Assembly: GCA_964349165.1 (NCBI GenBank)
Contig: CAYGFL010000002.1
Span: forward strand, 1 to 39,975
Reading direction: 5' to 3'
Source: an uncultured Candidatus Saccharibacteria bacterium
GTDB lineage: Bacteria > Patescibacteriota > Minisyncoccia > Phycocordibacterales > PALSA-1337
Length of the DNA: 39,975 bases
Below are positions 6,276 through 30,736 of the stretch, in pieces. The notes under the pieces were generated by a model. The model was not told the DNA's origin, made no database searches, and worked only from the letters and a program-made list of their open reading frames with translations. The position numbers and the translations under genes were made by a program. Positions within the stretch are counted from its first letter, which is position 1. Each line of letters starts with the position of its first letter.

Positions 6276-8042
6276 TTAGTCTACCTTGAGAACACCTTTT
6301 AGTACATCTTCAGAAACTTCTTGGGTATCTGCCTTCGAAGTAATATTCGGTGCAGGAGGTTTCTGATCTATTTTTGGTATCTCTTTTCCAGGAGGTCTTT
6401 GATTACCTAGGACAGAAGCCAGAGCATTGCGAAGCTCGTTCACATGCTCTGGTGATGCTTCTTTGGAATTTACTTTAGTCACAACCTTCGGTTCTAGTTT
6501 CGCTAGTGGAACAGTCTCTGGAGGATTTGGTTTAGAAATGACTTTTGGTATTACTGCTTTAAATGGTTGGTGAGTCTGTTGAGGTGGAGGAGATGGTGGT
6601 GGAGGTGTGGGAGGTTTAGGTGTAGGCGAGGTTGCTGGTGCAGGTGTAGATTGAGGAATAGGTTTCGGCTGGGACATCACTTTCAGCTTCGGAGGTACGA
6701 TGATCGGTTCCATCCAGTCAGAAATTGCTTTTTCTACTTCATCGCGAGTATGAGCGAACTGTTGTCGAGACATCGCTATCGCTTCTACTGCACTAGATGT
6801 TTCTGGTTGGGCTATTGGAGGAAGAGTCATTGCGGAAAAAGGTTGCGAACTGATACCATCAATCATGAGTTTTAAGTATATTTGTGTATAACCTAGATTT
6901 ACAATATCTTCTGCTGTAAATTGTGGCATAAATTCTTTTTCCAAAACCTCTGCATCATATGCACCTACACGAAAAACTATCATCGTACCGACGTTACCGA
7001 AGACTGCAGCTCTCACCTCTTCTTCCATCTGCTCTATATATTGATGAGCCATCGTCAGATTTAATTTATATTTTCTCGCTTCAGATAAGATGTCTGCAAA
7101 AGATTCATTGGCAAAAGATTGGAACTCGTCTACAAAAAGATAGAAATTTGGCATTCCTTTGAGTACTCGATCTGGGACATCGGCACGTGATAGAGCTGCA
7201 AGGTAGATCTTTGTGATGAGCATTCCGCCGAGGAGATTGGCGTTTGTCTCTCCTATTCTACCCTTCGACAGGTTGATTATCATTATCTTTTTACTATCCA
7301 TGATTTCACGGATATTAAAAGAAGATTTCGACTGACCTATCATATTTCTGATCAGCGCATTGGCTGTAAATTGCCCTATCTTGTTCTGTATCGCAGGCAC
7401 AGCTTCTGCCGCCATTCTTTCTGTATAGTTTGCAAATTCTTCTACCCAGAAAGATCTCACAGCTGGATCTGTAACATTTGCTACTACTTTTTCACGGAAC
7501 TTTTTATCAGAAAGCATACGATTTACACCGAGTAGAGTAGCTTCTGGATATTCTAGTAGTGCGAGTAGAGTGTTCGTTAAAATATATTCCATTCTGGCAG
7601 ACCATGCATCTTGCCAGATTTTTTTAAAGGTACTCATGAGTCCAGAGACGACGAGATGACGCTTGTCTGGATCGACACTTTCGAGAACGTTAAAAGATAT
7701 CGGGTGATCTGTATCGAACGGTGCAAAATATATTACATCTTTCACCCTCTCCGGTGGGATATATTCTAGTAGAAGATCTGCGGTCTTACCGTGAGGATCG
7801 ATGAATGCCATTCCCTCTCCATTTTTAATATCCTGCACTGCCATGTTTTCAAGAAGAGTGGATTTTCCCATTCCTGTTTTTCCGATGATGTAGACATGGC
7901 GTGTGCGATCTTTTGCCTTAATACCAAAAGTTACTTTTTTATTTCGAGCGTCAGTTTGAGCAAAATATGTGACTCTTTCTTCGTTCATATAAATATGGAG
8001 AATGTTTGGGTATATTTTATCATAGAAAATCCCCAAGTGCAT
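6276..8042 (-). CDS. TraD/TraG/VirD4-like (type IV coupling-protein-like) P-loop NTPase; soluble, with a Pro-rich disordered C-terminal tail
   Basis: Walker A IIGKTGMGKSTLLENM, Walker B FYLFVDEFQSF, and LTMAHQYIEQM. No N-terminal TM helices. The last ~140 aa are low complexity (PKPPTPPPPSPPPQQ). An alternative, probably better, start is the ATG at 7988 (MNEERVTYFAQTD). Confidence 0.75.
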   Translation of the reverse strand: MHLGIFYDKIYPNILHIYMNEERVTYFAQTDARNKKVTFGIKAKDRTRHVYIIGKTGMGKSTLLENMAVQDIKNGEGMAFIDPHGKTADLLLEYIPPERVKDVIYFAPFDTDHPISFNVLESVDPDKRHLVVSGLMSTFKKIWQDAWSARMEYILTNTLLALLEYPEATLLGVNRMLSDKKFREKVVANVTDPAVRSFWVEEFANYTERMAAEAVPAIQNKIGQFTANALIRNMIGQSKSSFNIREIMDSKKIMIINLSKGRIGETNANLLGGMLITKIYLAALSRADVPDRVLKGMPNFYLFVDEFQSFANESFADILSEARKYKLNLTMAHQYIEQMEEEVRAAVFGNVGTMIVFRVGAYDAEVLEKEFMPQFTAEDIVNLGYTQIYLKLMIDGISSQPFSAMTLPPIAQPETSSAVEAIAMSRQQFAHTRDEVEKAISDWMEPIIVPPKLKVMSQPKPIPQSTPAPATSPTPKPPTPPPPSPPPQQTHQPFKAVIPKVISKPNPPETVPLAKLEPKVVTKVNSKEASPEHVNELRNALASVLGNQRPPGKEIPKIDQKPPAPNITSKADTQEVSEDVLKGVLKVD

Positions 8043-9621: not shown

Positions 9622-9786
9622 CTAATTCAGTTTATTGTCTACATCAGCAGGAAAACGATACGCGATAACTATAATGAGTAGCCCAGATGCAAGAGCGATG
9701 ATCTTGTGCCACATGGACGGCAGTCCGAGAAAAAGAAAGAACATTATCCATATACCGAGCACACACAGCCATTGTCGTTTTGACAT
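9622..9786 (-). CDS. Small (54 aa) two-helix membrane protein, hypothetical
   Basis: Own translation: MSKRQWLCVLGIWIMFFLFLGLPSMWHKIIALASGLLIIVIAYRFPADVDNKLN*. It fills the gap between rsmI and the hydrolase, with its stop 1 nt before the next ATG. It is below the ORF-track size cutoff. Confidence 0.4.
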   Translation of the reverse strand: MSKRQWLCVLGIWIMFFLFLGLPSMWHKIIALASGLLIIVIAYRFPADVDNKLN

Positions 9787-9817
9787 ATATTATTTAATTT
9801 AAAAAATTACCTCACCA

Positions 9818-10501
9818 TTATATCACAGAGACGATGACCACAAACTCTCCTTTCTGTTTTTCTGGAGTTGTCGTGAGTCTTTCAAGGACTTCTTCTGCGC
9901 TACCTTGTATCACTTCCTCATAAATTTTCGTTATCTCTCTGACGATCGTGACCTTTTTTTCTGTTTGATTTAAATGTTCCTTCAGAGACTCTAGAGTTTT
10001 CATAATCCTATGTGTTGATTCGTAGAAAACCATAGTCCTTTCTGATATCGCGATCTCTTTAAAAAGAGTTTCTCTTCCCTTCTTGTGTGGCATGAAACCT
10101 AGAAAAATAAATTCATGAGTAGGAACTCCCGCGATGGAAAGTGCGGATGTCAGAGCAGATGCTCCAGGCACAGACTCGATTTTCAGATCTGGATATTCTT
10201 GTCTGATTTTAGAAATCAAAAGTGAACCTGGATCAGAGATGCCAGGAGTTCCAGCATCAGTGACTAGTGCAATGTTTTTTCCTTTGGCAATTTCTTCGAG
10301 AATTATTTCAACCTTCGCCTCACCGCTCTGGGCATGATAGCTCATGGTCTGAGTAGAGATAGCATGCTTTTCGAAAAGTTTGCGGGTGACTCTAGTATCC
10401 TCGCACAGCACCAGATCCACTTCTTTGAGAATACGAATAGCCCGGAGAGTGATGTCTTCGAGGTTGCCGATAGGTGTAGAAATCACATAAAATATACTCA
10501 T
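9818..10501 (-). CDS. rsmI: 16S rRNA (cytidine1402-2'-O)-methyltransferase RsmI
   Basis: IFYVISTPIGNLEDITLRAIRILKEVDLVLCEDTRVTRKL and DAGTPGISDPG (tetrapyrrole-methylase fold, RsmI family). Confidence 0.9.
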   Translation of the reverse strand: MSIFYVISTPIGNLEDITLRAIRILKEVDLVLCEDTRVTRKLFEKHAISTQTMSYHAQSGEAKVEIILEEIAKGKNIALVTDAGTPGISDPGSLLISKIRQEYPDLKIESVPGASALTSALSIAGVPTHEFIFLGFMPHKKGRETLFKEIAISERTMVFYESTHRIMKTLESLKEHLNQTEKKVTIVREITKIYEEVIQGSAEEVLERLTTTPEKQKGEFVVIVSVI

Positions 10502-10529
10502 ATGATATAGTTATCAGACTATCACATAT

Positions 10530-11633
10530 ATGGCGAAAAACTCAATAATCTACATCACAAAAGATAGAGAAAGGGCAGAAGGAATGCTCGAAAGTTCGAC
10601 ATATTCTATCCTATCCGGCGATGGGTCATCAGACACATTGGAGCTTCTTTCTGGTGTTAAAAATATCGGAGAATCCTCAATCTTGGTATTTAAAAATACA
10701 AAACAGATAGAGGAAATTGCTAAAAAAAATAACTGGAATCTTTTGAATCCCAGCGCCGAACTCGCAGAAAAGATTGAGAACAAAATAACTCAAGTAGAGT
10801 GGTTGGGCGAACTCGCGAGACTCCTCCCTCCTCACTCTGTCATGTTAACCAAGGATATAAAAAATATTCCTTGCGTAGTCCAGTGGGCTCATAGTCATAC
10901 CGGAGAAGGAACACTGCATATTCAGAACGAAAATTCTTTAAAAGAAATTCAGGCAAGGTTTCCGGATCGTGAAGCTCGGGTGACCGAATATATAAAAGGA
11001 CCAATGTTCACTGTAAATATTGTAGTGGCGAAAGACAAGATTCTTGTGGGTAATATCAGTTATCAGATCACAGGTCTTGCTCCTTTCACAGACAATCCAT
11101 TTAGCACTATAGGTAATGACTGGAGTGTGCCTCCTACTATTCTTACAGAGAGTCATCTCGTAGATTTTCATAATATATCTAGTCTCATTGGAAAAAAATT
11201 GCAGGACGATGGTTGGAAAGGACTCTTCGGTATCGATGTTATATATGATGAAGAAAGAGATAAGTTATTTTTAATTGAAATAAATGCTCGACAACCCGCA
11301 TCTACAACTTATGAATCTCAATTGCAGATGAAAGCTCGAGAAAAAGGAGTTGCGGGTATGACTACATTCGAAGCCCATTTGTCTGCACTTACAGACAAAG
11401 ATGTTGATTCTCTTATTGTTATCAACGATGGTGCACAGATAATACAGAGAGTTACTGCTAGTGTAAAAAAAATAAATACCGAATCTTTACAGAAAGCTGG
11501 TTACAAAGTTATGGAATATAAAAATACAAAATTAAATAGTGACTTAGTTCGTATTCAAAGTGAGAGAGGGATAATGGAGACGCATAATAAGTTTAATGGG
11601 AGAGGAAAGGAAATAGAAAAAGATATTATATGA
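10530..11633 (+). CDS. ATP-grasp domain ligase of unknown specificity
   Basis: C-terminal ATP-grasp core GLFGIDVIYDEERDKLFLIEINARQPAST, with a pre-ATP-grasp N-domain. No clear Ddl, RimK or PurK subfamily signature is visible by eye. Confidence 0.7.
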   Translation: MAKNSIIYITKDRERAEGMLESSTYSILSGDGSSDTLELLSGVKNIGESSILVFKNTKQIEEIAKKNNWNLLNPSAELAEKIENKITQVEWLGELARLLPPHSVMLTKDIKNIPCVVQWAHSHTGEGTLHIQNENSLKEIQARFPDREARVTEYIKGPMFTVNIVVAKDKILVGNISYQITGLAPFTDNPFSTIGNDWSVPPTILTESHLVDFHNISSLIGKKLQDDGWKGLFGIDVIYDEERDKLFLIEINARQPASTTYESQLQMKAREKGVAGMTTFEAHLSALTDKDVDSLIVINDGAQIIQRVTASVKKINTESLQKAGYKVMEYKNTKLNSDLVRIQSERGIMETHNKFNGRGKEIEKDII

Positions 11634-12391
11634 AACAAATGCCAACCAAACTCCTTTCAGAAAAAGCTCTCTCTGTCATAGGTCAGTACATGAATTTCCA
11701 CATTGGTGGAGCTGTTTGCTCTATTCCCTACTACAACAATCGTCATTTACGGGCACGTGCGAAACTCAAAGTCCAGATTGGAAAAGGTAGTCCAGAAAAT
11801 ATTCAGGACGAAGTGGAAAATACTGCGCTTTTACAGAAAATAAATTTGAAAGCTATCGACTCTGTAAGTCTCAAGAAATTTCTTGTAGAAAATAATATCG
11901 GCATCGACTGCTCTGGGCTCGCATACTACATTCTTAAATCAGAATATGAACATCTCAAACTCTCATTCCCTTTTCAAAAAGGATTACTCGGAAAACTGCG
12001 TGCCAGATTTCGTCCGATAGAAAATGCTGACGTGGCTACACTTGCTCATGATAAAAATAGTATGACGATCGATCTTAAAAATATTTCTCAAGGAGATATG
12101 ATCACCATGCTCGGTGGATTGGAAAATAAAGATAGAGACCATGTTCTGCTAATTCACAAAGTTGATTATACAGACTCGACACCATCTACTATCTACTACA
12201 CACACACCATCGCATGGCCGACTGATGGAGAATATGGACATGGTGTGAGACAAGGAATAATAAAAATCACTGATTTAGAAAAATCTCTCACAGAACAAGA
12301 ATGGATCGAGGTAGAAAAGACAGCAGAGGAAAACTATACTCTCCTGCGAGCCCTGAAATCCAAGACTGAGATTAGGCGCTTGAGGCTGTAA
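11630..12391 (+). CDS. NlpC/P60 (C40)-like cysteine peptidase/amidase-fold protein
   Basis: IGIDCSGLAYYIL (catalytic Cys motif), GDMITMLGG...DHVLLIHKV (His motif) and a later His in YYTHTIAW. ATGA overlap with the ATP-grasp gene. Confidence 0.5.
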   Translation: MKQMPTKLLSEKALSVIGQYMNFHIGGAVCSIPYYNNRHLRARAKLKVQIGKGSPENIQDEVENTALLQKINLKAIDSVSLKKFLVENNIGIDCSGLAYYILKSEYEHLKLSFPFQKGLLGKLRARFRPIENADVATLAHDKNSMTIDLKNISQGDMITMLGGLENKDRDHVLLIHKVDYTDSTPSTIYYTHTIAWPTDGEYGHGVRQGIIKITDLEKSLTEQEWIEVEKTAEENYTLLRALKSKTEIRRLRL

Positions 12392-12421
12392 TTTACTGCA
12401 TTTTATGCTAAAGTATGCGAT

Positions 12422-13549
12422 ATGATAAGCATACTAGAAGGAACGGCTGATTTGGGCTATATCCTCGGCTTTTCTGTTTTCGCCTGTGCAGTCGCTTTCC
12501 TATGGTCACCTCTGCTCATTCACCTTTTGAACCGTTTCCATATTATGAAAACGGCCAAGGTCGAACTAGCTTCCATAGAGTCTCGTAAGGGAAAAGACAA
12601 CACCCCTATCATGGGAGGTCTCCTCATCATCGTAACTGTAGGAGTTATCAGTCTTCTCTTCAATTGGTCTCGTAGCTTCACATGGGTGCCACTCGGAGTT
12701 ATGTTTCTAGCCGCAATACTTGGTGGACTGGATGACCTTTTAAATATTTTTGGAGCAGAGAGACGATCTAGAAAACTGACTCATATTATTACACTTATAA
12801 AAGTCCACAAGGATTGGAAGATGCGTCTCTGGTATATAGTCACCTTTCCTTGGACTATATTTAAAAGAACTTCGGTATGGCTTGGTTCTAGACCTGGAAA
12901 AGGTATCCATGTGCACGAGAAACTACTCCTACAGTTCGTAGCGGGCACCATCACAGCTTGGTGGGTGTATAGCAAGCTGGGTCAAGCTTGGCACTACATT
13001 TACCTTCCTTTTGGTATTGATATTTTTGCAGGCTGGTTCATTATCCCGATTATTATTTTCATAGTTATGTTCACAGCGAATGCCGTCAACATCGCAGACG
13101 GTATGGATGGTCTGGCTGGAGGCATGCTCATCACGACATTCAGTGCTCTCACACTATTGAGTTGGATAAATGGATTCGGAGAGATTTCTGTACTCAATGC
13201 TACAGCTGTAGGTGCTCTAGTCGCCTATACATATTTCAATATCAAACCCGCGCGGTTCATGATGGGAGACGTGGGATCTCTCGGCCTCGGTGCTCTATTT
13301 GCAGTGAACACTCTCGCCATCGGTGAGATCGGTTCGATCTTTTTCCTTGGTTTTCTTTTTTATATAGAAGCTGTAACTGTGGTTATACAAGTCCTCGGTC
13401 GCTATATCCTAGGTCGTCGCATATTCCGAATGGCGCCACTGCATCATCATTTTGAACTCATAGGTTGGAGTGAAGAGAAGACAATCATGCGTTTTTGGAT
13501 TGTTCATTTCATTTTCGTGGTCTTCGGTATCTGGTTAGCTCTACACTAA
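12422..13549 (+). CDS. mraY: Phospho-N-acetylmuramoyl-pentapeptide transferase MraY
   Basis: NAVNIADGMDGLAGG, MGDVGSLGLGA and APLHHHFE motifs, with about 10 TM helices. Confidence 0.92.
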   Translation: MISILEGTADLGYILGFSVFACAVAFLWSPLLIHLLNRFHIMKTAKVELASIESRKGKDNTPIMGGLLIIVTVGVISLLFNWSRSFTWVPLGVMFLAAILGGLDDLLNIFGAERRSRKLTHIITLIKVHKDWKMRLWYIVTFPWTIFKRTSVWLGSRPGKGIHVHEKLLLQFVAGTITAWWVYSKLGQAWHYIYLPFGIDIFAGWFIIPIIIFIVMFTANAVNIADGMDGLAGGMLITTFSALTLLSWINGFGEISVLNATAVGALVAYTYFNIKPARFMMGDVGSLGLGALFAVNTLAIGEIGSIFFLGFLFYIEAVTVVIQVLGRYILGRRIFRMAPLHHHFELIGWSEEKTIMRFWIVHFIFVVFGIWLALH

Positions 13550-13550
13550 T

Positions 13551-14183
13551 ATGGAATATCTTCATTGGAAAGAAGAAAAGGTTACAGATTTTTCTGAATC
13601 AAATATTTCGGAGATGTATGGTAATGGATTTGTTTTTACGAGAATAGATAAAGGGAAGATGCATCAGACGAGAAGTGTGCGAATCGATCTTTCCAAATTT
13701 GAATTATCTAGTGAGAATAGAAGGGTGTTAAAGAAAACCGAAAGTATAGAACTCAAAGAAAACAAAATCCCCTTTTCCGAATACACTTGGGAGATAGGTA
13801 AAATCGCAAAAGATTTTTATGATAAAAAAGCCGGAGGCGCTTTTTCTGCAAACAAAATAAAAGAAATAATAACTACTGATCATAATTTCAATACTTTATT
13901 TAATTTTTTAGATCTAGGATACGCGATATGTTATATGAATAAAAATATTCTGCACTACTCCTACCCTTTCTATGATTTAGAAAAGTCTCCGAAGGACATA
14001 GGGCTCGGCATGATGATCAAGGCTGTGGTGTGGGCAAAAGATAAAGGATTAAAATATGTTTATCTCGGTTCATTACAGAGACCTGGTGATGTGTATAAGT
14101 TGCAGTTCGAAGGGTTGGAGTGGTTCGATGGGAAGGAGTGGAGTAAAGATTTGGAAAAGGTTAAAATAATACTTCATGAATAA
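13551..14183 (+). CDS. Arginyl/leucyl-tRNA-protein transferase-like protein (ATE/Bpt family, GNAT/Fem-like fold), lacking the Cys-rich N-domain
   Basis: GFVFTR...RIDLSKFELSSENRRVLKK, ILHYSYPFYDLEKSPKDIGLGMMIKAVVWAKDKGLKYVYLGS and YKLQFEGLEWFDGKEW align by eye to Bpt/ATE_C motifs (SAVYTFYDP..SLG...YLGYWI...YK..F.P.E.L..G.W). It starts 1 nt after the mraY stop and overlaps mpl by 8 nt. Confidence 0.6.
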   Translation: MEYLHWKEEKVTDFSESNISEMYGNGFVFTRIDKGKMHQTRSVRIDLSKFELSSENRRVLKKTESIELKENKIPFSEYTWEIGKIAKDFYDKKAGGAFSANKIKEIITTDHNFNTLFNFLDLGYAICYMNKNILHYSYPFYDLEKSPKDIGLGMMIKAVVWAKDKGLKYVYLGSLQRPGDVYKLQFEGLEWFDGKEWSKDLEKVKIILHE

Positions 14184-15531
14184 CCAGCAACATATCCACA
14201 TCGTAGGCATTTGTGGCGTAGCCACTAGCGCCCTGGCTATCGCCTTCAAGAATAGAGGTTGGAAGGTCACAGGAAGTGATAAGGGTTTCTTCCCTCCTGT
14301 CTCTACAGAACTAGAGAGAAATGATATTGCTTTCTATGCTGGTTGGCATCCAGAAAAAATGGGTATGCCAGACTATGTCATAGTCGGAACTGCGTCAGGT
14401 TCTACGAATCCAGAAACTCAATATGCTAGAGAAAAAAATATCCCAATATACTCTTTTGCAGAAGCCATCGGTGAATTCTTGGTGAAAGAAAATTCTATAG
14501 TCTGCGTTGGTACATGGGGAAAAACGAGTTCCTCTGCGCTTCTTTCATATATTCTAGAAAAAGCAGATTTCAATCCATCATATATGTTCGGCGGTGTTTC
14601 TCTTTCACACGAATCGTCTGGAAAAATAACAGATAGTAAGTGGAGTGTCTGTGAAGGTGATGAATACAAAAGTGGTCCGACAGATCCGACTCCAAAGTTT
14701 CAGTACTACAAGCCCACTCACCTATTGCTCACAGCCGTGTCATGGGATCATGCCGATCTTTACCCAACAGAAGAATCTTTTATAAAGACTTTCGAAAAAC
14801 TTGTCGCTTCTGTCGGTTTCATTGTCGCTTGTAGAGATAATGAGAAAGTTGTGCAAGTGGTCGGTGATAAAAAAGTGGTATGGTATGGTAAAGAAAATGC
14901 GGACTATATATACAGTGACATCATACAGACAAAAGACGGATTGGATTTTAAGATAAATGATATAAAAATACATTCACCTATGATCGGCACTTTTCAAGCC
15001 GAAAATATTACTGGTTGTTTCGCCATAGCTCATACGCTAGGTATAGATGCAAAAATAATTGTTGAGGCTGTTGCAGGATTCAAAGGTTTGAAGCGTCGTC
15101 TAGAGAAACGTCTGGATGGAGATATAGTTGTCTTCGATGACATTGCCCACTCTCCAGAAAAAGCCTCTTTTGTATTAAAAAATCTAAGGTCTATCTATAC
15201 CGGAAAGATCATTACAATTTTCGAACCGAATATCGGTGGTCGTAGTCGCGAATCGATAGGTAAATATGATAATGCTTTCAGAGACTCTGACACTGTATTT
15301 ATAGCTAGACTTACAAAATTAAAAATAGGAGAGAGTGACAGACCAATGGAAGGCAACGAACTAACAGAAATTATTGCAAAAACTCATTCGGATGTGAGAT
15401 ACATCGAAGATGATGATAGACTTGTCCAAGAAATAAAAGCCATGGTAAAAGACGGCGATGTCGTAGCTTTCCTTGGCTCCCACGGATTCCGTGGAATGAT
15501 AGAGGCGGTGATTACTTCCCTTCGTCGATAA
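14176..15531 (+). CDS. mpl: Mur ligase, Mpl-type (UDP-MurNAc:L-Ala-gamma-D-Glu-meso-DAP ligase-like) or divergent MurC
   Basis: IHIVGICGVATSALAIAF..GWKVTGSDKGFFPPVSTEL (Mpl-type GICG/YPPMS pattern), P-loop GTWGKTSSSA, and EGDEYKSGPTDPTPKFQYYKPTHLLLTAVSWDHADLY (compare Mpl ADEYDxAFFDKRSKFxHY). Confidence 0.8.
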   Translation: MNNQQHIHIVGICGVATSALAIAFKNRGWKVTGSDKGFFPPVSTELERNDIAFYAGWHPEKMGMPDYVIVGTASGSTNPETQYAREKNIPIYSFAEAIGEFLVKENSIVCVGTWGKTSSSALLSYILEKADFNPSYMFGGVSLSHESSGKITDSKWSVCEGDEYKSGPTDPTPKFQYYKPTHLLLTAVSWDHADLYPTEESFIKTFEKLVASVGFIVACRDNEKVVQVVGDKKVVWYGKENADYIYSDIIQTKDGLDFKINDIKIHSPMIGTFQAENITGCFAIAHTLGIDAKIIVEAVAGFKGLKRRLEKRLDGDIVVFDDIAHSPEKASFVLKNLRSIYTGKIITIFEPNIGGRSRESIGKYDNAFRDSDTVFIARLTKLKIGESDRPMEGNELTEIIAKTHSDVRYIEDDDRLVQEIKAMVKDGDVVAFLGSHGFRGMIEAVITSLRR

Positions 15532-15676
15532 TCTCGGTAGTGAGAGTATCGTCTTGTATCATCTTTATCAACAGTGTAATACCACAATGATTGCACTCTA
15601 TGACCATACCTTCTTTAAGTGAAGGATAATTTGAAAGATTTATATTGTTTTTGCATTCTGGACAGTATGATTTCAT
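15512..15676 (-). CDS. LysW-like zinc-ribbon mini-protein (54 aa)
   Basis: Own translation: MKSYCPECKNNINLSNYPSLKEGMVIECNHCGITLLIKMIQDDTLTTEIIDEGK*. It has CPEC...CNHC spacing and an acidic tail, like the LysW/amino-group carrier family. It is not in the ORF track; the track's 15384..15596 ORF is in another frame and looks like junk. Confidence 0.5.
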   Translation of the reverse strand: MKSYCPECKNNINLSNYPSLKEGMVIECNHCGITLLIKMIQDDTLTTEIIDEGK

Positions 15677-15726
15677 ATATTTTCTGTATACTTCTAATAG
15701 TACCTGAAACGTTGTAGTATATCAAT

Positions 15727-16590
15727 ATGATAACCCCACACGAGAAACATGACGAATTAGCCAAGGAACTGGGTCTTTCTTCTCCTGTCTTCTTTAAAAG
15801 AGAGGATCTGCACCCATATGGGTCTCATAAGGGCAGATCGATCCCACATATGATAGATGAGAAGATTGCAAAAGGTTGCAAGCATTTTGTCATCTCTTCT
15901 TCAGGCAATGCCGCCTTGGCTGCTGGACTCTATGTTGAAAAGTTGAACTCCGAAGGTAAAAATATCACTTTAGAAATATTCGCTGGAAAAAACATATCTC
16001 CGAAAAAACTTGAAAAACTAGAGGCTCTAAAAAGTGAAAATATTCTAGTATCTTTACAAGACAGACCTCTGCAAGCCCTCTTCATGAAGACTCAAGATCC
16101 TTCGATCGAGAGTCTACGTCAGTCCAATGATGATATCGCTCTTGTAGGATACGAATCTCTTGCAAAAGAACTCCTCGAGATCCCAGATCTCTCTGCAGTC
16201 TTCATGGGGACTTCCTCTGGTACCACGGCGCAGGCCATCGCAGAATATTTTAGAAAAAATGATAAAAAAATAGAAGTCCATATTGTCCAGACTTCGTCTT
16301 GCCACTCGATAGCCGATGCTTTCGTCGATAATTATAGTAGTGAAGAGAAATCGATCGCAGACGCCATAGTCGATCAGACAGCGTTACGCAAAGATACTTT
16401 GGTACCCCTCATAACCTCTGGTTGGATCGCCTCGAATGAACAGATAATATCTGCGCAAGAAATAGTTCAAAAAAATACAGATCTTGATATATCGACCAAT
16501 AGCGCCCTCTCAGTTGCTGGACTTATGCAAGCGGTATATACAGGTAAAACATGGAGAGGGCCTCTCGTCTGCATGATCTGTGGGGACTAG
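15727..16590 (+). CDS. PLP-dependent enzyme, fold type II (Trp-synthase-beta/threonine-synthase-like superfamily)
   Basis: REDLHPYGSHKGRS (PLP-lysine motif, compare xPTGSFKDRG), ISSSGNAALAAGLY and GTSSGTTAQ (phosphate-binding loop). Confidence 0.65.
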   Translation: MITPHEKHDELAKELGLSSPVFFKREDLHPYGSHKGRSIPHMIDEKIAKGCKHFVISSSGNAALAAGLYVEKLNSEGKNITLEIFAGKNISPKKLEKLEALKSENILVSLQDRPLQALFMKTQDPSIESLRQSNDDIALVGYESLAKELLEIPDLSAVFMGTSSGTTAQAIAEYFRKNDKKIEVHIVQTSSCHSIADAFVDNYSSEEKSIADAIVDQTALRKDTLVPLITSGWIASNEQIISAQEIVQKNTDLDISTNSALSVAGLMQAVYTGKTWRGPLVCMICGD

Positions 16591-17867
16591 AGAGACCTCA
16601 CCGCTTTTACGAACTTCTCACCTCGATCTTTCCTTGAGATATGTATACCCACAGCTTCGAAAGCTGGGCTGAAGATTACCTTATCACCTTTTCTACTTTC
16701 TCCTTTAGACATGATGACCGCATCTTCGAGTGTAGGTGCTTGCAAGAAACGTATACCTCTCATCGTTTCTAGACTCTCACGCAATCCTAGACTACCAGTG
16801 CCAGGTAAAAGAATCACAGAAGAAACGTATCTGGAAAGTAGAGAGATGAGCTCAGAATAATCGTGTTTTGTATATGCCCCACCCAAGATGAGCACAATAT
16901 TTTTCGCATCAGCACTTTGTAATGTCTGAAGTGCAAAAACTGTAGCAAGAGGTGTCACAGAAGCTGAGTCATTGTAAAATTCTACTCCATCTATTTTCTT
17001 TACTAGTTCCTGATGACTACGTAGTCCTGTAAAATTATCGATTATACCCTGCGCCGTTTCTACAGGTACTTTGAAAAGCTCTGCAGTCTGGATCGCTAGA
17101 GCTTGGTTGGTAGAACGGGTCCTGAGCATTTTAGCCTTGGTGGTGAAATTCGATTTAGATTTTATATTATCGATCACAATATCTGTAGCCACGATGAAGT
17201 TGTTGTAAGTCTGATGTTCTAGGATAGCAAAAGCTGTCGGTACACCCTCCATAGCAGATGATGTGAGAGACGTGATCACTGCGACATGTGGACTGATACG
17301 TGCCTCGTGATATTCACCCAGCATTTCCTCTGTGATGCGAGCGAGGATAACATCTCCTTGTTTTATTTTTTTTAGATGAGTCAGAGCTCCATTCGGAAGA
17401 TCTGGATCGATAAAATATAGACCTTGAGCTTCATAATCCTTGAAAGATTGCTTCAGTACAGCGTACAGCATATGTGCGACTGTACTCTTGCCACATTGAC
17501 CCATGATGCCGATGAGAGTGATCGGTGGAGCTAATTTTAAAAAAAGTACATCTGGATATTCTATACGTATGCCTGCATTATAGACTTTCTTGAGAAATAG
17601 AGAATCTTTTGGAATTTCTTGTGACAGAATGATCAATTCTGATTGCAATAGACTCTCACCTGGCGGTGTACCCAATTCATATCTTGTAAGCCCCGCAGTC
17701 CTAAGCACAGAGAGTGGCCCCTGCATCCTATTTTCACTACGTATATCATATAGAGAAACAAGAGCTCCTGTCTTCAAGAGAAATTTAATGTCTGCTACCA
17801 TTTCGCCATGTGGACCTAGTCCCACTACAGCTATATGCTTACCCTTGAAGAAAGTCTTGTAGTTCAC
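16587..17867 (-). CDS. murD: UDP-N-acetylmuramoylalanine-D-glutamate ligase MurD
   Basis: GKHIAVVGLGPHGEMVA (N-terminal Rossmann), IGIMGQCGKSTVAHML (P-loop) and the Mur ligase C-domain. GTG start at 17867, overlapping the upstream stop (GTGA). Confidence 0.85.
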   Translation of the reverse strand: MNYKTFFKGKHIAVVGLGPHGEMVADIKFLLKTGALVSLYDIRSENRMQGPLSVLRTAGLTRYELGTPPGESLLQSELIILSQEIPKDSLFLKKVYNAGIRIEYPDVLFLKLAPPITLIGIMGQCGKSTVAHMLYAVLKQSFKDYEAQGLYFIDPDLPNGALTHLKKIKQGDVILARITEEMLGEYHEARISPHVAVITSLTSSAMEGVPTAFAILEHQTYNNFIVATDIVIDNIKSKSNFTTKAKMLRTRSTNQALAIQTAELFKVPVETAQGIIDNFTGLRSHQELVKKIDGVEFYNDSASVTPLATVFALQTLQSADAKNIVLILGGAYTKHDYSELISLLSRYVSSVILLPGTGSLGLRESLETMRGIRFLQAPTLEDAVIMSKGESRKGDKVIFSPAFEAVGIHISRKDRGEKFVKAVRSL

Positions 17868-18178
17868 TCTCTCATTATATCTGCCTTTGGAGCATTTTCA
17901 ATGAGGTCCTTCACTTTTATCATTTCTTGTAGAAGAGCTTGTAGTTTCAGAGATTCTGCATTATCAATATTATTGTCGATGAAATCTCCCAGTTTTTTCA
18001 TAAAAAGTTGGTGTATGTCATCTAGATATTGTTCTAGAATAATAATATTTCCTCTACCCACAGTGCCACTGTCTCGTACAGTGAAAAATGCAGGTGGTCT
18101 GCGTATACCTTCGAAGTACAGACAGTCGTCTGATATGACCCCTTCGATCGAAGGAGATGTGATCGTGTATGTATTCAT
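17864..18178 (-). CDS. Hypothetical protein (104 aa), no recognisable family
   Basis: Clean ATG ORF packed between radC and murD, with a GTGA overlap with murD. The N-terminal half looks beta-rich and the C-terminal half helical and acidic. Confidence 0.5.
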   Translation of the reverse strand: MNTYTITSPSIEGVISDDCLYFEGIRRPPAFFTVRDSGTVGRGNIIILEQYLDDIHQLFMKKLGDFIDNNIDNAESLKLQALLQEMIKVKDLIENAPKADIMRE

Positions 18179-18189
18179 TGTAGAAAAAA

Positions 18190-18930
18190 CTAATAGTTAC
18201 CTTTTATACTCGTGAATGTATCTTTCGTGATGATGATATGATCCAAGACATTTATACCTAGTATTTTGCCAGCGTGTATGAGTTGTTCGGTGATCTCTAT
18301 ATCTTGCGCACTAGGCATGGCTGTGCCAGATGGATGGTTGTGCGCCAACACAAGAGCGACTGCACTGTACTCTATCGCTGGTCGAAAGACTTCGCGTGGG
18401 TGCACGATATTTGTATTTATAGTGCCTATAGAGATAACCTCATCGTGTATTATCCTATTGTGACTATTGAGATATAACCCTCGCAAGTGTTCTTTCGGCA
18501 GGTTTTGCATATCACGTAGATACTCATAGGCATCTTTTGCAGTACGGATCACGGTGAACCCCGATGAATTTTTTTCAAAAAATCTCTTGCCGAGCTCTCC
18601 ACATGCCACGATCTGACAGGCTTTGATGAGTGGGATGTTCAGATCTTCTGCAAGTTTCTCCGGATTTTTCTCTGAAAAGATGCTCCTCTCACCATATTCT
18701 TTGACTATACGATTTGCAAGTTCCATTATTCCCTCATTTTTACTACCTACGTTCAAAACTACCGCCAGGAGTTCTGGCAGAGAGAGGATCTGTGGACCTT
18801 GTTTGATCAATTTTTCCCGTGGCTGACTATCGTGTGGCAGATCTCTGATCTTCAATACATATTCCTTTATGGAATTGTCTAGAAAAAGATCTGTATCTTT
18901 TAAATTGTATTTTTTGGTAATCGTGTTCAC
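18190..18930 (-). CDS. radC: RadC-like JAB/MPN domain protein
   Basis: SLPELLAVVLNVGSKNEG (HhH region) and the JAMM motif LVLAHNHPSGTAMPSAQD. GTG start in the track. Confidence 0.88.
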   Translation of the reverse strand: MNTITKKYNLKDTDLFLDNSIKEYVLKIRDLPHDSQPREKLIKQGPQILSLPELLAVVLNVGSKNEGIMELANRIVKEYGERSIFSEKNPEKLAEDLNIPLIKACQIVACGELGKRFFEKNSSGFTVIRTAKDAYEYLRDMQNLPKEHLRGLYLNSHNRIIHDEVISIGTINTNIVHPREVFRPAIEYSAVALVLAHNHPSGTAMPSAQDIEITEQLIHAGKILGINVLDHIIITKDTFTSIKGNY

Positions 18931-21638: not shown

Positions 21639-21714
21639 TGGTGCGCGCGCTTGGGGTCGAACCAAGGACCTTTCGAGTATCAGTCGAATGCTCTACCAGC
21701 TGAGCTACGCGCGC
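21639..21714 (-). tRNA. tRNA-Ile (anticodon GAT), CCA encoded
   Basis: The minus strand reads GCGCGCGTAGCTCAGCTGGTAGAGCATTCGACTGATACTCGAAAGGTCCTTGGTTCGACCCCAAGCGCGCGCACCA. It has a 7-bp acceptor stem, a D-loop AGCTCAGCTGGTAGAGC, an anticodon loop CTGATAC and a T-arm CTTGG-TTCGACC-CCAAG. Confidence 0.92.
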
Positions 21715-24108: not shown

Positions 24109-24621
24109 TTAGTATTTATACGAGTAGCGGATGGCACGCTCGACTCTCTTGGGGCTTGCAACATTGCATGTCTTATTGACGCTATCCCAACCAGTATTGT
24201 ATCCACGAGATTCGATAGTTTTTGTAGTCTCACCGCTTGTTGTAATTTCTGTGACAGTCACTCTTGCACAAGAGTTCCCTTCACTACCAAACTTGGCATG
24301 AAAGATAAAAGTTCCACCAGCAGGAGGGTGTGTTGTTGAGAAAGCCATGGAAGGATTGCAACTTAGCAGGTTTGTTTTATCGGTACTTATATTGAAAGCA
24401 TCGATATTATCGCCTAGCAACGCACATTCGAATCCCCCGTCGGCAGCGTAGAATGCAAGAGATGAATCTCGCGCAGAAGTAGAGAGTAAAAATTCTTTTT
24501 TACTAATATTTAATATTGAAATACCGATACTTAATACAAGTGAAGATACTAGCACAGCGAATAGTAGTGTGTATCCCCTATTTGTTTTTATATCTTTATT
24601 TTTGTACATTGTATATAACAT
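24109..24621 (-). CDS. PilX-like pilus-associated protein (PilX_N-type hydrophobic N-terminus; no E5)
   Basis: NRGYTLLFAVLVSSLVLSIGISILNISKKEFLLSTSARDSSLAFYAADGGFECAL resembles the PilX N-domain. It is the last gene of the minor-pilin block. Confidence 0.55.
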   Translation of the reverse strand: MLYTMYKNKDIKTNRGYTLLFAVLVSSLVLSIGISILNISKKEFLLSTSARDSSLAFYAADGGFECALLGDNIDAFNISTDKTNLLSCNPSMAFSTTHPPAGGTFIFHAKFGSEGNSCARVTVTEITTSGETTKTIESRGYNTGWDSVNKTCNVASPKRVERAIRYSYKY

Positions 24622-25147: not shown

Positions 25148-25152
25148 ATTAT

Positions 25153-25875: not shown

Positions 25876-25882
25876 TTTATTT

Positions 25883-27194: not shown

Positions 27195-27206
27195 TTAGTT
27201 TTTGAT

Positions 27207-27752: not shown

Positions 27753-27774
27753 AGTATGGAATAATTATAACACG

Positions 27775-28350: not shown

Positions 28351-28393
28351 TATTATTATAAGTGTACCATGTAACTCCCCTTCTCCTCAAAAC

Positions 28394-28426
28394 AAAACCT
28401 CCCCGGGAGGGGGGAGGTTTTGAGAT
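28394..28426 (-). terminator. Strong intrinsic terminator after the major pilin genes; palindromic, so usable on both strands
   Basis: AAAACCTCCCC-(6 nt loop)-GGGGAGGTTTT forms an 11-bp stem and is followed on the minus strand by GTTTTG. It lies about 15 nt downstream of the stop at 28441. Confidence 0.8.
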
Positions 28427-28440
28427 AGGTATGTGATCTA

Positions 28441-28935: not shown

Positions 28936-28949
28936 ACTAAACTAAATAA

Positions 28950-29408: not shown

Positions 29409-29458
29409 ACGAATAAATTAACTTAATAAAAACAATTAATAATTAAACTTATAGACGT

Positions 29459-29469: not shown

Positions 29470-29486
29470 ATCCCTAGGAAATAGGT

Positions 29487-30730: not shown

Positions 30731-30736
30731 ATTGTT

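What the first reader, a model, noticed from the sequence alone, without database searches (positions are those of the whole stretch)
10530..17867. System-level hypothesis: a non-canonical peptidoglycan stem-peptide salvage/tailoring module built around mraY
A normal dcw/mur cluster is not what surrounds mraY here. The plus-strand run is ATP-grasp ligase, then an NlpC/P60-fold protein (ATGA-coupled), then mraY, then an ATE/Bpt-like aminoacyl-tRNA transferase (1-nt gap), then an Mpl-type recycling ligase (8-nt overlap). These face a LysW-like zinc ribbon, a fold-type-II PLP enzyme and murD. No murE, murF, ddl, alr, murI or fem genes are visible in the window. Taken together the parts suggest a route with four steps. 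First, an imported or host-derived stem peptide is trimmed by the C40 enzyme. Second, it is loaded onto UDP-MurNAc by the Mpl-type ligase. Third, it is extended by the ATP-grasp ligase and/or the tRNA-dependent transferase. Fourth, it is handed to MraY. I do not know of this gene combination having been described as a unit.
Basis: partly seen in the sequence, partly recalled or inferred. Interest (0 to 1): 0.72.

Follow-up and report, generated by a model that had tools for sequence, protein, structure and literature searches.

The report
Conserved Patescibacteria cell-wall precursor gene module
In this ultra-small (CPR/Patescibacteria) bacterium the cell-wall genes mraY, murC and murD sit among five unusual partner genes, and this set recurs in hundreds of related species and is sometimes physically fused, which points to an undescribed way of building or editing the wall's peptide stem rather than to salvage.

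Summary
The gene inventory is real, with two corrections. The PLP gene is on the + strand. The "Mpl-type" ligase scores better as MurC (241 vs 193 bits).

The arrangement is strongly conserved. Across 82 loci from GTDB species representatives, counting only loci with enough flank:
- MraY lies next to the ATE-like gene in 79/79.
- MurC follows in 67/67.
- The zinc ribbon is present in 63/64, the PLP enzyme in 62/63, the ATP-grasp in 65/68 and the NlpC/P60-like gene in 70/73.

The core persists where flanking synteny is lost.

Gene fusions link the parts:
- ATP-grasp with NlpC/P60 (at least 60 protein clusters).
- ATP-grasp with NUDIX.
- In a deep sister lineage, ATE-like with MurC, inside a canonical mraZ-rsmH-ftsL-ftsI-murE-…-murA cluster.

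Canonical MurE or MurF sit beside the module in relatives. That argues for de novo synthesis with extra tailoring or editing, not Mpl-based salvage.

Component assignments:
- The ATE-like protein has an ATE1/MprF/FemX-type fold (pLDDT 92). It is most likely a tRNA-dependent aminoacyl transferase acting on a peptidoglycan precursor.
- The 54-aa LysW-type zinc ribbon has an invariant acidic tail ending in Lys (…DEGK). It is unexplained and may be a new carrier type.

I found no published description. Biochemical roles are inferred, not shown.

The parts
10530..11633 (+). A: ATP-grasp ligase (367 aa), first gene of the plus-strand run
   Evidence: Pfam ATP-grasp_3 scores 28.3 bits, above GA. Weak NCBIfam hits go to PRK06524 'biotin carboxylase' (60 bits) and to the archaeal pseudomurein Ddl-like ATP-grasp (28 bits). 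It is present in 65/68 loci with enough flank. It is fused to B in L051 and L071 and in at least 60 protein clusters, and alternatively to NUDIX.
11630..12391 (+). B: cytoplasmic NlpC/P60-like (papain-fold) cysteine amidase/peptidase (253 aa)
   Evidence: The ATGA overlap with A is confirmed. GIDCSG and RDH[IV]L are invariant or nearly so. NLPC_P60 hits 28/30 homologues but scores 16 bits, below GA, for this protein. The AF2 model has pLDDT 88.5. Foldseek matches are weak only: IdeS/Mac-1, E. coli Gsp amidase (CHAP) and CHAP endolysins, all E >= 0.02. The N-terminus is not hydrophobic. It is present in 70/73 loci.
12422..13549 (+). C: MraY, phospho-MurNAc-pentapeptide translocase (375 aa)
   Evidence: Glycos_transf_4 scores 84.5 bits and TIGR00445 166.5 bits. 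The catalytic motifs are readable. It lies next to D in 79/79 loci.
13551..14183 (+). D: ATE/Bpt-fold aminoacyl-tRNA transferase-like protein (210 aa), no ATE_N domain hit and no N-terminal Cys
   Evidence: NCBIfam arginyltransferase models give E 2e-10, and ATE_C scores 20 bits, below GA. The AF2 model has pLDDT 91.6. The best Foldseek match is human ATE1 (E 5e-7, TMq 0.65). K. lactis/yeast ATE1 reaches TMq 0.68, followed by MprF aa-PG synthase domains and FemX. There are 1853 homologues, with the top 120 at 66-77% identity. More than 527 GTDB species carry it. A relative is fused to MurC (P0379).
14176..15531 (+). E: MurC-type (MurC/Mpl family) UDP-MurNAc amino-acid ligase (451 aa)
   Evidence: All three Mur ligase domains are present. 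murC scores 241 bits against 193 for mpl. The top PDB hits are MurC structures. The P-loop GTWGKTS is readable. It follows D in 67/67 loci and in 5 of 9 sampled sister-family contexts.
15512..15676 (-). F: 54-aa LysW-type zinc ribbon with an invariant acidic C-terminal tail ending in Lys (…EIIDEGK)
   Evidence: Zn_ribbon_LysW scores 28.7 bits, above GA 27. LysW equivalog models score below cut-off. The pairwise match to T. thermophilus LysW is only E 0.2. An alignment of about 70 species shows invariant CPECKN…EC..CG and a C-terminal (E/D)I(V/I)DEGK. It is always on the minus strand, divergent from G. The counterpart in L092 ends …EILEEEK.
15727..16590 (+). G: fold-type-II PLP enzyme (287 aa), ThrC/SDH/IlvA/racemase-like, divergently transcribed with F
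   Evidence: PALP scores 116.8 bits. The family profile against PDB ranks threonine synthases at 1e-15, Ser/Thr dehydratases at 1e-10, aspartate racemase at 7e-9 and serine racemase at 2e-6. GSHKGRS, SSSGNAA and TSSGTTAQ are invariant or nearly so. It is present in 62/63 loci. A homologue with 32% identity occurs in L092.
16587..17867 (-). H: MurD (426 aa); part of the cluster in Paceibacteria-type genomes only
   Evidence: MurD-like_N and Mur_ligase_C are found, and TIGR01087 scores 127.9 bits. The P-loop GQCGKST is readable. It is present in 43/55 loci and absent from the region in Magasanikbacteria-type loci.
17864..18178 (-). I: conserved 104-aa hypothetical protein immediately upstream of murD on the minus strand (membership uncertain)
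   Evidence: It has no family hit. It is co-conserved with MurD in 42/54 loci.

Best explanation
This is the core of a Patescibacteria-wide gene cluster for de novo synthesis of the peptidoglycan nucleotide/lipid precursor. It carries lineage-specific tailoring or quality-control enzymes.

Supported by family assignment and context (no biochemistry was done):
- E, H and C are the organism's MurC, MurD and MraY.
- D, A, B, F and G travel with murC/mraY across hundreds of species and several deep lineages, and they are linked to these genes and to each other by gene fusions.

Inferred:
1. D is a FemX-like but ATE-family enzyme. It transfers an amino acid from an aminoacyl-tRNA to a free amine of a soluble precursor (UDP-MurNAc-peptide), for example a branch on residue 3, before MraY makes lipid I.
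2. A is an ATP-dependent amide ligase of the Ddl / D-Asp-ligase kind. It works on the same UDP-linked substrate.
3. B (a cysteine amidase) and, in other lineages, a fused NUDIX hydrolase undo or edit A's product or mis-made precursors. This parallels the ATP-grasp plus CHAP pair in glutathionylspermidine synthetase/amidase and the editing factor PgeF.
4. G supplies a D- or otherwise non-standard amino acid.
5. F is G's small partner or carrier.
For: Conservation:
- Counting only loci with enough flank among the 82 loci: MraY 79/79, MurC 67/67, F 63/64, G 62/63, A 65/68 and B 70/73.
- The A-G core is kept in Magasanikbacteria-type loci that have lost TrwB, DUF4015, RsmI, MurD, RadC and PK synteny.

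Fusions:
- A-B occurs in L051, L071 and at least 60 clusters, at identities down to 38% and including a Wolfebacteria record.
- A-NUDIX occurs in about 20 clusters.
- D-like::MurC (P0379, 645 aa) lies in mraZ-rsmH-ftsL-ftsI-murE-[fusion]-murA.

Deep sister lineages:
- The order MurE-D-MurC is seen in L089, L092 and L094, and D-MurC-PgeF-like/MurB/MurA in L090.
- L092 also keeps two B-like genes, a G-like gene and an F-like gene ending in EEEK.
- L079 has FtsI-MurF-MraY-D-MurC-F-G.

Fold:
- D matches ATE1, MprF aa-PG synthase domains and FemX, all of which are aminoacyl-tRNA transferases.

Translational coupling:
- ATGA overlap, 1-nt gap and 8-nt overlap.

Background:
- ATP-grasp ligases make D-Ala-D-Ala and D-amino-acid cross-links. 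Fem GNAT-fold ligases use aa-tRNA and are related to the Arg- and Leu/Phe-tRNA protein transferases (PMC2922099).
- Mur chimeras often join non-sequential steps of the pathway (PMC10214165).
Against: - There is no biochemical or muropeptide evidence. The acceptor, the donor tRNA and the amino acid are all unknown.
- D passes no curated family cut-off itself (ATE_C 20 bits against GA 25).
- A fusion to MurC does not place D after MurE/MurF, and UDP-MurNAc and UDP-MurNAc-L-Ala have no free amine.
- Part of the synteny is simply the strong general synteny of Paceibacteria, since RsmI, RadC and PK are also conserved.
- B's fold match is weak (E >= 0.02).
- G is closest to threonine synthases, not racemases.
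- F's role is unexplained.
- The three contigs carrying the D::MurC fusion may be re-assemblies of the same groundwater data.
- Whether ddl, alr, murI or femX exist elsewhere in this genome could not be checked.
Confidence: 0.55

Rival explanations
1. Carrier-protein route. F is a LysW-like carrier. An amino acid is ligated to or near F's acidic C-terminal tail (…DEGK) by the ATP-grasp A. In A-less lineages an extra MurE paralogue does this. The amino acid is then modified by the PLP enzyme G and released by the cysteine amidase B. This supplies a D- or non-standard amino acid, or a preformed peptide, to the MurC-type ligase. The scheme overlaps with the best explanation for D, E and MraY and differs in what A, B, F and G do.
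For: - F passes the Pfam LysW zinc-ribbon gathering score and is the same size as LysW, 54 aa.
- Its tail is invariant over about 70 species.
- The acidic-plus-terminal-Lys pattern recurs in the deep lineage L092.
- F is always divergently paired with G.
- A and B are fused, as expected for a load/unload pair.
- L092 lacks A but has a second bona fide MurE next to a B-like gene.
Against: - The defining LysW tail (EDWGE, terminal Glu) is not present.
- LysW equivalog models score far below cut-off.
- A is not a RimK/LysX-type ATP-grasp, since it gives only ATP-grasp_3 and PRK06524 hits.
- No LysZ/Y/J/K homologues are found.
- A fold-type-II PLP enzyme needs a free alpha-amine, which ordinary amino-group carrier chemistry would block.
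- The A-NUDIX fusion points to a nucleotide-linked substrate, not a protein-linked one.
- There is no direct evidence that F contacts A or B.
Confidence: 0.17
2. An imported or host-derived stem peptide is trimmed by B. It is loaded onto UDP-MurNAc by E acting as an Mpl-type ligase, extended by A and/or D, and passed to MraY.
For: - E belongs to the MurC/Mpl family and reaches neither curated cut-off.
- In sister lineages the two scores are nearly equal or reversed: L090 253 vs 241, and L092 mpl 211 vs murC 204.
- B is cytoplasmic and NlpC/P60-like, as are the YkfC-type recycling peptidases (own knowledge).
- CPR bacteria are scavengers.
Against: - E scores MurC above Mpl by 48 bits here and by 59 bits in the fusion.
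- E is the only MurC/Mpl-type ligase detected in the fetched flanks of these loci, and it sits beside MurD, which needs MurC's product.
- Bona fide MurE and a MurF-type ligase flank the module in relatives, inside canonical dcw clusters with MurA and MurB. That indicates stepwise de novo assembly.
- No peptide transporter or LdcA-type gene was seen in any fetched locus.
Confidence: 0.1
3. Precursor proofreading module. Because these organisms scavenge amino acids, B, the NUDIX domain and possibly D exist mainly to destroy or correct mis-built UDP-MurNAc-peptides. This would be functionally like PgeF. A would re-ligate the correct residue.
For: - The ligase A is fused to two different hydrolases, B or NUDIX.
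- In L092 a B-like gene overlaps the 3' end of the MurC-type gene.
- In L090 a PgeF-like gene (62 bits, below cut-off) follows D-MurC.
- NUDIX genes sit in the module in Magasanikbacteria-type loci, L092 and L095.
Against: - No substrate evidence exists.
- The PgeF-like hit is well below its cut-off.
- An aminoacyl-tRNA transferase has no obvious editing role.
- This reading does not explain F and G.
Confidence: 0.12
4. Coincidental neighbours. D is an ordinary Bpt-type N-degron transferase acting on proteins. A, B, F and G are unrelated housekeeping genes kept beside mur genes only by the generally rigid synteny of these small genomes.
For: - D's nearest sequence models are bacterial arginyl/leucyl transferases.
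- Many clearly unrelated genes (RsmI, RadC, pyruvate kinase, DUF4015) are also syntenic in Paceibacteria.
Against: - The core survives where that general synteny is lost.
- D-like genes sit next to or are fused with Mur ligases in at least five further diverged contexts.
- The A-B and A-NUDIX fusions exist.
- D has no ATE_N domain hit and no N-terminal Cys.
- D is a small, tight family: only 433 representatives at E <= 1e-3 among 1.84 billion.
Confidence: 0.05

Closest known systems
FemX/FemA/FemB/MurM aminoacyl-tRNA-dependent peptidoglycan branch transferases
   Same: - D's predicted fold is in the same GNAT-derived aminoacyl-tRNA transferase superfamily (FemX at E 1e-4).
- D is genomically tied to Mur ligases and MraY.
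- Weissella FemX also acts on the soluble UDP-MurNAc-pentapeptide, just before MraY (PMC2175331 abstract).
   Different: - D is half the size, with a single GNAT-like unit of 210 aa, and has no FemAB Pfam hit.
- By sequence and best structural match it belongs to the ATE/Bpt clade.
- Its acceptor and donor are unknown.
ATE1 / bacterial Bpt arginyl- or leucyl-tRNA protein transferases (N-degron pathway)
   Same: - These give D's best sequence models (NCBIfam arginyltransferase, E 2e-10) and best structural match (human ATE1 E 5e-7; K. lactis ATE1 TMq 0.68).
- The SENRR, YLG and YK motifs are conserved across D and its sister families.
   Different: - D scores below the curated cut-offs.
- It has no ATE_N domain hit and no N-terminal Cys.
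- It forms a small CPR-restricted family embedded in dcw clusters and is fused to MurC in one lineage.
- No link to Clp or N-degron machinery was seen.
LysW/ArgW amino-group carrier proteins with LysX (ATP-grasp)
   Same: - F is a 54-aa zinc ribbon that passes the Pfam LysW-domain threshold.
- It has a flexible acidic C-terminal tail.
- An ATP-grasp ligase belongs to the same conserved module.
   Different: - The tail ends …DEGK/…EEEK (terminal Lys) rather than …EDWGE (terminal Glu).
- The ATP-grasp is not RimK/LysX-type.
- No kinase, reductase, aminotransferase or M20 hydrolase partners are present.
- The context is peptidoglycan synthesis, not lysine or arginine synthesis.
Glutathionylspermidine synthetase/amidase (ATP-grasp synthetase fused to a CHAP cysteine amidase)
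   Same: - A and B form the same kind of pair, an ATP-grasp amide ligase plus a papain-fold Cys amidase, and are fused in many relatives.
- E. coli Gsp amidase is among B's few structural matches.
   Different: - The domain order is reversed, with ATP-grasp at the N-terminus here.
- There is no significant sequence similarity.
- The substrate is presumably a wall precursor, not a polyamine thiol.
Ddl and D-aspartate ligase (Aslfm): ATP-grasp ligases of peptidoglycan synthesis
   Same: - Same superfamily and same pathway context.
- Aslfm adds a D-amino acid to UDP-MurNAc-pentapeptide and is paired with a racemase (PMC2922099; own knowledge). This is analogous to A plus G.
   Different: - A gave no hit to bacterial Ddl models in either library.
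- Its only related hit is the archaeal pseudomurein Ddl-like model at 28 bits.
- G is fold-type II and ThrC-like, not a known Asp or Ala racemase.
Mpl murein-peptide ligase recycling pathway
   Same: E is in the MurC/Mpl family, and a cytoplasmic NlpC/P60-like peptidase is adjacent.
   Different: - E scores higher as MurC here.
- MurD, MurE, MurF, MurA and MurB accompany the module.
- No import or LdcA-type recycling genes were seen.

Membership tests
ATE/Bpt aminoacyl-tRNA protein transferase (Pfam ATE_C PF04377, ATE_N PF04376) | Sequence match to ATE_C above the curated threshold | tested here: inconclusive
   The window protein scores 20.2 bits, below GA 25. NCBIfam arginyltransferase models give E 2e-10 but score far below cut-off. 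Sister-family members reach 27-41 bits, above GA.
ATE/Bpt aminoacyl-tRNA protein transferase (Pfam ATE_C PF04377, ATE_N PF04376) | GNAT-derived aminoacyl-tRNA transferase fold | tested here: met
   The AF2 model has pLDDT 91.6. Foldseek finds human ATE1 at E 5e-7 (TMq 0.65) and K. lactis ATE1 at TMq up to 0.68.
ATE/Bpt aminoacyl-tRNA protein transferase (Pfam ATE_C PF04377, ATE_N PF04376) | N-terminal ATE_N domain with conserved cysteines | tested here: not met
   There is no ATE_N hit. No Cys is present in residues 1-120 of D or its homologues. The NCBIfam alignment starts at model position about 73.
ATE/Bpt aminoacyl-tRNA protein transferase (Pfam ATE_C PF04377, ATE_N PF04376) | Transfers Arg/Leu from tRNA to N-terminal Asp/Glu of proteins | not testable with these tools
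   This needs an enzyme assay.
FemABX peptidoglycan aminoacyl transferases (PF02388) | Sequence membership in the FemAB family | tested here: not met
   There is no FemAB hit in Pfam or NCBIfam at E <= 0.01.
FemABX peptidoglycan aminoacyl transferases (PF02388) | Fold related to FemX | tested here: met
   Weissella FemX structures match at E about 1e-4 and TMq 0.47-0.49. This is similarity at superfamily level only.
FemABX peptidoglycan aminoacyl transferases (PF02388) | Acts on a peptidoglycan precursor (genomic proxy: linkage to mur/mraY genes) | tested here: met
   The proxy is met: 79/79 loci have D next to MraY and 67/67 have MurC following. A D::MurC fusion sits in a dcw cluster. The order MurE-D-MurC is seen in L089, L092 and L094. 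The activity itself was not tested.
NlpC/P60 (C40) cysteine peptidases | Sequence match to NLPC_P60 above the curated threshold | tested here: inconclusive
   The window protein scores 16.2 bits, below GA 23. 28 of 30 homologues match at E <= 1, with the best at 5e-6. Two homologues carry a precomputed PF00877 hit.
NlpC/P60 (C40) cysteine peptidases | Catalytic Cys in a DCSG-type motif plus a downstream His | tested here: met
   G91, C94 and S95 (within GIDCSG) and H171 (within RDH[IV]L) are invariant, and D93 and H192 nearly so, in 30 sequences.
NlpC/P60 (C40) cysteine peptidases | Papain-like alpha+beta fold | tested here: inconclusive
   The model has pLDDT 88.5. Only weak Foldseek matches were found (E 0.02-0.7), though all are papain-fold enzymes: IdeS, Gsp amidase, CHAP endolysins and USPs.
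LysW/ArgW amino-group carrier protein | LysW-type zinc-ribbon globular domain | tested here: met
   PF21344 scores 28.7 bits, above GA 27. The four Cys are invariant.
LysW/ArgW amino-group carrier protein | C-terminal …EDWGE tail with a terminal Glu as the attachment site | tested here: not met
   The tail is an invariant …(E/D)I(V/I)DEGK and …EILEEEK in L092. TIGR01206 scores 19 bits against cut-off 53, and the archaeal carrier model 25 against 75.
LysW/ArgW amino-group carrier protein | Partner enzymes LysX (RimK-type ATP-grasp), LysZ, LysY, LysJ and LysK in the cluster | tested here: not met
   None was found in the window or the loci. A is ATP-grasp_3, not RimK-type.
MurC (TIGR01082) versus Mpl (TIGR01081) | Higher score to one equivalog model, above its cut-off | tested here: inconclusive
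   Window E scores murC 241 against mpl 193, both below their cut-offs of 335 and 389. The fusion P0379 scores 209 against 150. L090 scores 253 against 241, and L092 scores 204 against 211.
MurC (TIGR01082) versus Mpl (TIGR01081) | Only MurC/Mpl-type ligase in a genome that has murD, murE and murF | not testable with these tools
   Only up to ±10 kb around each hit could be read, and no second copy was detected in any of 83 loci. Whole genomes are needed.
ATP-grasp superfamily | ATP-grasp domain above the curated threshold | tested here: met
   PF02655 scores 28.3 bits, above GA 23.2, and 38 bits in the L071 fusion.
Fold-type-II PLP enzymes (PF00291) | PALP domain with the PLP-binding Lys and the phosphate loop | tested here: met
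   The domain scores 116.8 bits. K35 in GSHKGRS, SSSGNAA and TSSGTTAQ are invariant or nearly so.

The most novel reading that the evidence does not exclude
Patescibacteria build part of their wall peptide by a route not known in other bacteria. An ATE-family enzyme, working physically with the MurC-type ligase, makes a stem-peptide or branch bond from an aminoacyl-tRNA. A new class of LysW-like carrier, with an acidic tail ending in Lys, serves as the platform. On that platform an ATP-grasp ligase (or an extra MurE paralogue), a PLP enzyme and an NlpC/P60 amidase make and release a non-standard or D-amino acid, or a peptide, for the wall.
Probability: 0.15. Interest if true: 0.9.

Novelty: new variant of a known kind. 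Interest (0 to 1): 0.68.

Why it matters
Patescibacteria/CPR make up a large share of bacterial diversity, yet their wall chemistry is essentially uncharacterised. One review states that most CPR genomes lack reliable cell-wall information (PMC8871954).

This module gives five concrete, highly conserved candidates that sit inside the wall-precursor operon. D is about 70% identical across more than 100 clusters.
- If D is a Fem-like enzyme recruited from the ATE/Bpt clade, that would be an independent origin of tRNA-dependent wall synthesis.
- If F is a carrier, it would extend the LysW paradigm to a new chemistry.

Either way, the composition of the CPR stem peptide becomes directly testable with a handful of recombinant proteins. 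The genes could also serve as markers or targets specific to this radiation.

Tried and rejected
1. Single-sequence and profile searches of A, B, D and F against PDB sequences gave nothing useful. Only E and G had real hits.
2. Foldseek on the B model gave only sub-threshold papain-fold hits.
3. Literature searches found no description of this module. They covered CPR + peptidoglycan + mur genes, arginyltransferase + peptidoglycan, LysW + ATP-grasp + peptidoglycan, PF04377, and dcw + Patescibacteria. One query was rejected for syntax. The survey of Mur chimeras lists no ATE-MurC fusion and excluded unidentified species.
4. A whole-genome inventory of murE, murF, ddl, alr and murI for this organism was not possible. 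The window is a whole 39,975-bp contig, and only up to ±10 kb around hits can be fetched. I used neighbouring genes in relatives as a proxy.
5. The promoter/terminator scan of 9700-18300 gave no clear operon boundaries.
6. Rfam and tRNA scans found only tRNA-Ile(GAT) at 21639-21714 and no dedicated tRNA next to D.
7. A being a LysX/RimK-type or bacterial Ddl-type enzyme is not supported by the family scans.
8. G being assignable to a specific activity (racemase, dehydratase or threonine synthase) is rejected as undecidable from sequence.

Full report
**1. What is in the window**

The window looks like a Patescibacteria (CPR) contig. It has about 40% GC, a large type IV pilus cluster, DUF5671, a TrwB-like ATPase and sugar-nucleotide and glycosyltransferase genes. 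The database record of one of its proteins gives a longest contig of 39,975 bp, which suggests the window is a whole contig.

The finding's eight ORFs are all present.
- A and B overlap by ATGA.
- There is a 30-nt gap before mraY.
- There is a 1-nt gap between mraY and D.
- D and E overlap by 8 nt.
- F converges on E with a 20-nt overlap.
- F and G are divergent across 50 nt.
- G and H converge with a 4-nt overlap.

Two details are wrong. G, the PLP enzyme, is on the + strand. The 'Mpl-type' ligase E scores higher as MurC.

**2. Family assignments**

- A is an ATP-grasp protein (PF02655, above GA). Its only other hits are weak: PRK06524 'biotin carboxylase', the archaeal pseudomurein Ddl-like model and PylC.
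- B has no hit at default thresholds. Its family does carry the NlpC/P60 hallmark GIDCSG[FL]AYY and a conserved His in RDH[IV]L. 28 of 30 members hit NLPC_P60 at E <= 1. A confident AF2 model (pLDDT 88.5) finds only weak matches, but all are papain-fold enzymes, including E. coli Gsp amidase. B has no hydrophobic N-terminus, so it is probably cytoplasmic.
- C is MraY.
- D hits bacterial arginyltransferase models (E 2e-10) but is below the Pfam ATE_C threshold. Its AF2 model (pLDDT 91.6) matches ATE1 best (E 5e-7, TMq 0.65-0.68). MprF aminoacyl-PG synthase domains and FemX follow. All of these are aminoacyl-tRNA transferases.
- D has no ATE_N domain hit and no N-terminal Cys.
- E has all three Mur-ligase domains and scores murC 241 bits against mpl 193. 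Its top PDB hits are MurC structures.
- F passes the Pfam LysW zinc-ribbon threshold at 28.7 bits but not the LysW equivalog models.
- G is a fold-type-II PLP enzyme. A family profile ranks threonine synthases at 1e-15, Ser/Thr dehydratases at 1e-10, aspartate racemase at 7e-9 and serine racemase at 2e-6. Its activity cannot be assigned.
- H is MurD.

**3. Conservation**

D has 1853 homologues, and the best 120 are 66-77% identical. Three long relatives showed the same neighbourhood.

A scan of one genome per GTDB species found at least 527 species with a D relative, and 80 loci were fetched. tblastn of the window's proteins against all loci, counting only loci with enough flank, gave:

| Gene | Loci with the gene |
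|---|---|
| MraY next to D | 79/79 |
| MurC after D | 67/67 |
| F (always on the minus strand) | 63/64 |
| G | 62/63 |
| A | 65/68 |
| B | 70/73 |

Paceibacteria-type loci also conserve unrelated flanks (TrwB, DUF4015, RsmI, MurD, a 104-aa ORF, RadC and PK), so part of this is general synteny. Magasanikbacteria-type loci (L050, L051, L056, L058, L068, L071, L075, L079, L082) have lost those flanks and still keep the core, A to G in most of them and MraY to G in L058 and L079, where A and B were not detected. In six of them MurB lies divergently upstream of A. In L079 the order is FtsI-…-MurF-MraY-D-MurC-F-G, with MurF at 266 bits.

**4. Fusions**

- A and B form one ORF in L051 and L071.
- A search with the L071 fusion found at least 60 clusters of 615-720 aa covering the whole query, at identities down to 38%. 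One carries both PF02655 and PF00877, and one comes from a Wolfebacteria record.
- The same search found about 20 clusters in which A is instead fused to a NUDIX domain.

**5. Deep relatives of D**

A profile search of 1.84 billion representatives found only 433 proteins at E <= 1e-3. They comprise the tight D family plus a sister group of 235-275 aa. Many sister-group members pass the ATE_C threshold, and they share the invariant SENRR, YLG and YK motifs.

- P0379 (645 aa) is a D-like domain fused to a MurC-type ligase (murC 209 bits, mpl 150). It lies in mraZ-rsmH-ftsL-ftsI-murE(365 bits)-[fusion]-murA. The three contigs that carry it may derive from the same groundwater data.
- The order MurE-D-MurC also occurs unfused in L089, L092 and L094. 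L090 has D-MurC-PgeF-like/MurB/MurA.
- L092 additionally has two bona fide MurE paralogues, two B-like genes (one overlapping the end of the MurC-type gene) and a G-like PLP gene.
- Hidden inside the mis-called 5' end of that PLP gene is a 50-aa F-like zinc ribbon on the opposite strand, ending …EILEEEK.
- Of nine sampled sister contexts, five have a MurC-type ligase immediately downstream or fused. Three show no such link (L087, L088, L096).
- P0367 is a D-like domain fused to PPDK_N and PEP-utilizer domains.

**6. The zinc ribbon**

An alignment of about 70 F proteins shows invariant CPECKN…EC..CG and an invariant C-terminus (E/D)I(V/I)DEGK. Characterised LysW carriers end in EDWGE and are loaded on the terminal Glu (own knowledge). 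The pairwise match of F to T. thermophilus LysW is only E 0.2. An acidic tail with a terminal Lys, conserved into a lineage where D is under 30% identical, argues that the tail is functional. What it does is unknown.

**7. Interpretation**

The data show that this is a real, deeply conserved, peptidoglycan-linked module. They argue against salvage for four reasons:
- E behaves as the cluster's MurC.
- MurD lies adjacent.
- MurE, MurF, MurA and MurB accompany the module in relatives.
- No import or LdcA-type genes were seen.

One caveat remains. In L090 and L092 the MurC and Mpl scores are about equal, and a whole-genome inventory was not possible.

The most economical mechanism is de novo precursor synthesis with extra tailoring or editing:
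- D acts as a Fem-like, tRNA-dependent transferase.
- A acts as a Ddl/Asl-like ligase on a UDP-linked substrate, which the NUDIX fusion suggests.
- B and NUDIX act as the hydrolytic counterpart, as in Gsp synthetase/amidase or PgeF.
- G acts as the supplier of an unusual amino acid.
- F acts as G's partner or as a carrier.

All of these roles are inferred. Background on ATP-grasp and Fem-type ligases in wall synthesis, and on their kinship to the Arg- and Leu/Phe-tRNA protein transferases, comes from PMC2922099. The point that Mur chimeras often join non-sequential steps comes from PMC10214165.

**8. Novelty and verdict**

I found no description of this module in eight successful literature searches. 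The published survey of Mur chimeras lists MurE-MurF, MurG-MurC, MurC-MurB, MurC-Ddl and MurD-FtsW, but no ATE-MurC fusion.

I rate this a new variant of a known kind: a peptidoglycan precursor cluster with undescribed accessory enzymes. Interest is 0.68. There is a 0.15 chance that it hides new chemistry, either a tRNA-dependent stem-peptide step or a Lys-tailed LysW-like carrier.

Noticed in passing
window 24109-36758 (minus strand): A large type IV pilus cluster. It has seven or more prepilin-like genes with N_methyl motifs, an A24 prepilin peptidase, T2SSF, two T2SSE ATPases, a response regulator and PilM. This is typical of CPR episymbionts.
   Followed up: no
window 6276-8042 (minus): A TrwB/VirD4-like coupling ATPase (588 aa) with a long Pro-rich C-terminal tail. 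It is syntenic upstream of the module in most Paceibacteria-type loci.
   Followed up: partly
window 17864-18178 (minus): A 104-aa ORF with no family hit. It overlaps the murD start by 4 nt and is co-conserved with murD in 42/54 loci. It could be a further module member.
   Followed up: partly
window 13551-13613: The public gene call for D (P0001, 189 aa) starts 21 codons too late. The N-terminus MEYLHWKEEK is conserved in all homologues.
   Followed up: yes
between D and MurC in relatives, e.g. L001 10637-12515, L003 10168-10719, L015, L018: The D-MurC junction is an insertion hotspot. Zero to about 3 kb of variable, often minus-strand genes, including a Bro-N protein, are inserted in many species, whereas the window has an 8-nt overlap.
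   Followed up: partly
L092 6436-10004 and 7903-8697, 12103-12807: A deep sister lineage has two bona fide MurE paralogues (452 and 445 bits) and two B-like genes in one dcw cluster, but no ATP-grasp A.
   Followed up: partly
P0457, P0462-P0509 (Magasanikbacteria-type proteins, 541-581 aa): The ATP-grasp A is fused to a NUDIX hydrolase domain in about 20 clusters. Free-standing NUDIX genes sit inside the module in L056, L071, L092 and L095.
   Followed up: partly
L088 10001-12430 (P0367, 809 aa): A D-like domain is fused to PPDK_N (an ATP-grasp-type nucleotide-binding domain) and a PEP-utilizer swivel domain. A MurE-like ligase lies 4.4 kb upstream.
   Followed up: partly
L084 1601-2947 and L092 1-967: A class-II aminoacyl-tRNA synthetase lies just upstream of mraZ in two sister-lineage dcw clusters. 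It is GlyRS-like in L092, and in L084 it carries tRNA-synt_2b and HGTP_anticodon domains. This may be a coincidence, but glycyl-tRNA is the classic Fem donor.
   Followed up: no
L090 3355-4179: A Cu-oxidase_4 / PgeF-like gene (TIGR00726, 62 bits, below cut-off 141) directly follows the D-MurC pair.
   Followed up: partly
window 21639-21714 (minus): tRNA-Ile(GAT) is the only RNA gene detected in the window.
   Followed up: yes
L075 9638-11053: My ORF caller gives a 471-aa ORF spanning the D homologue, which suggests a C-terminal extension or read-through in this species. I did not check it against a gene call.
   Followed up: no
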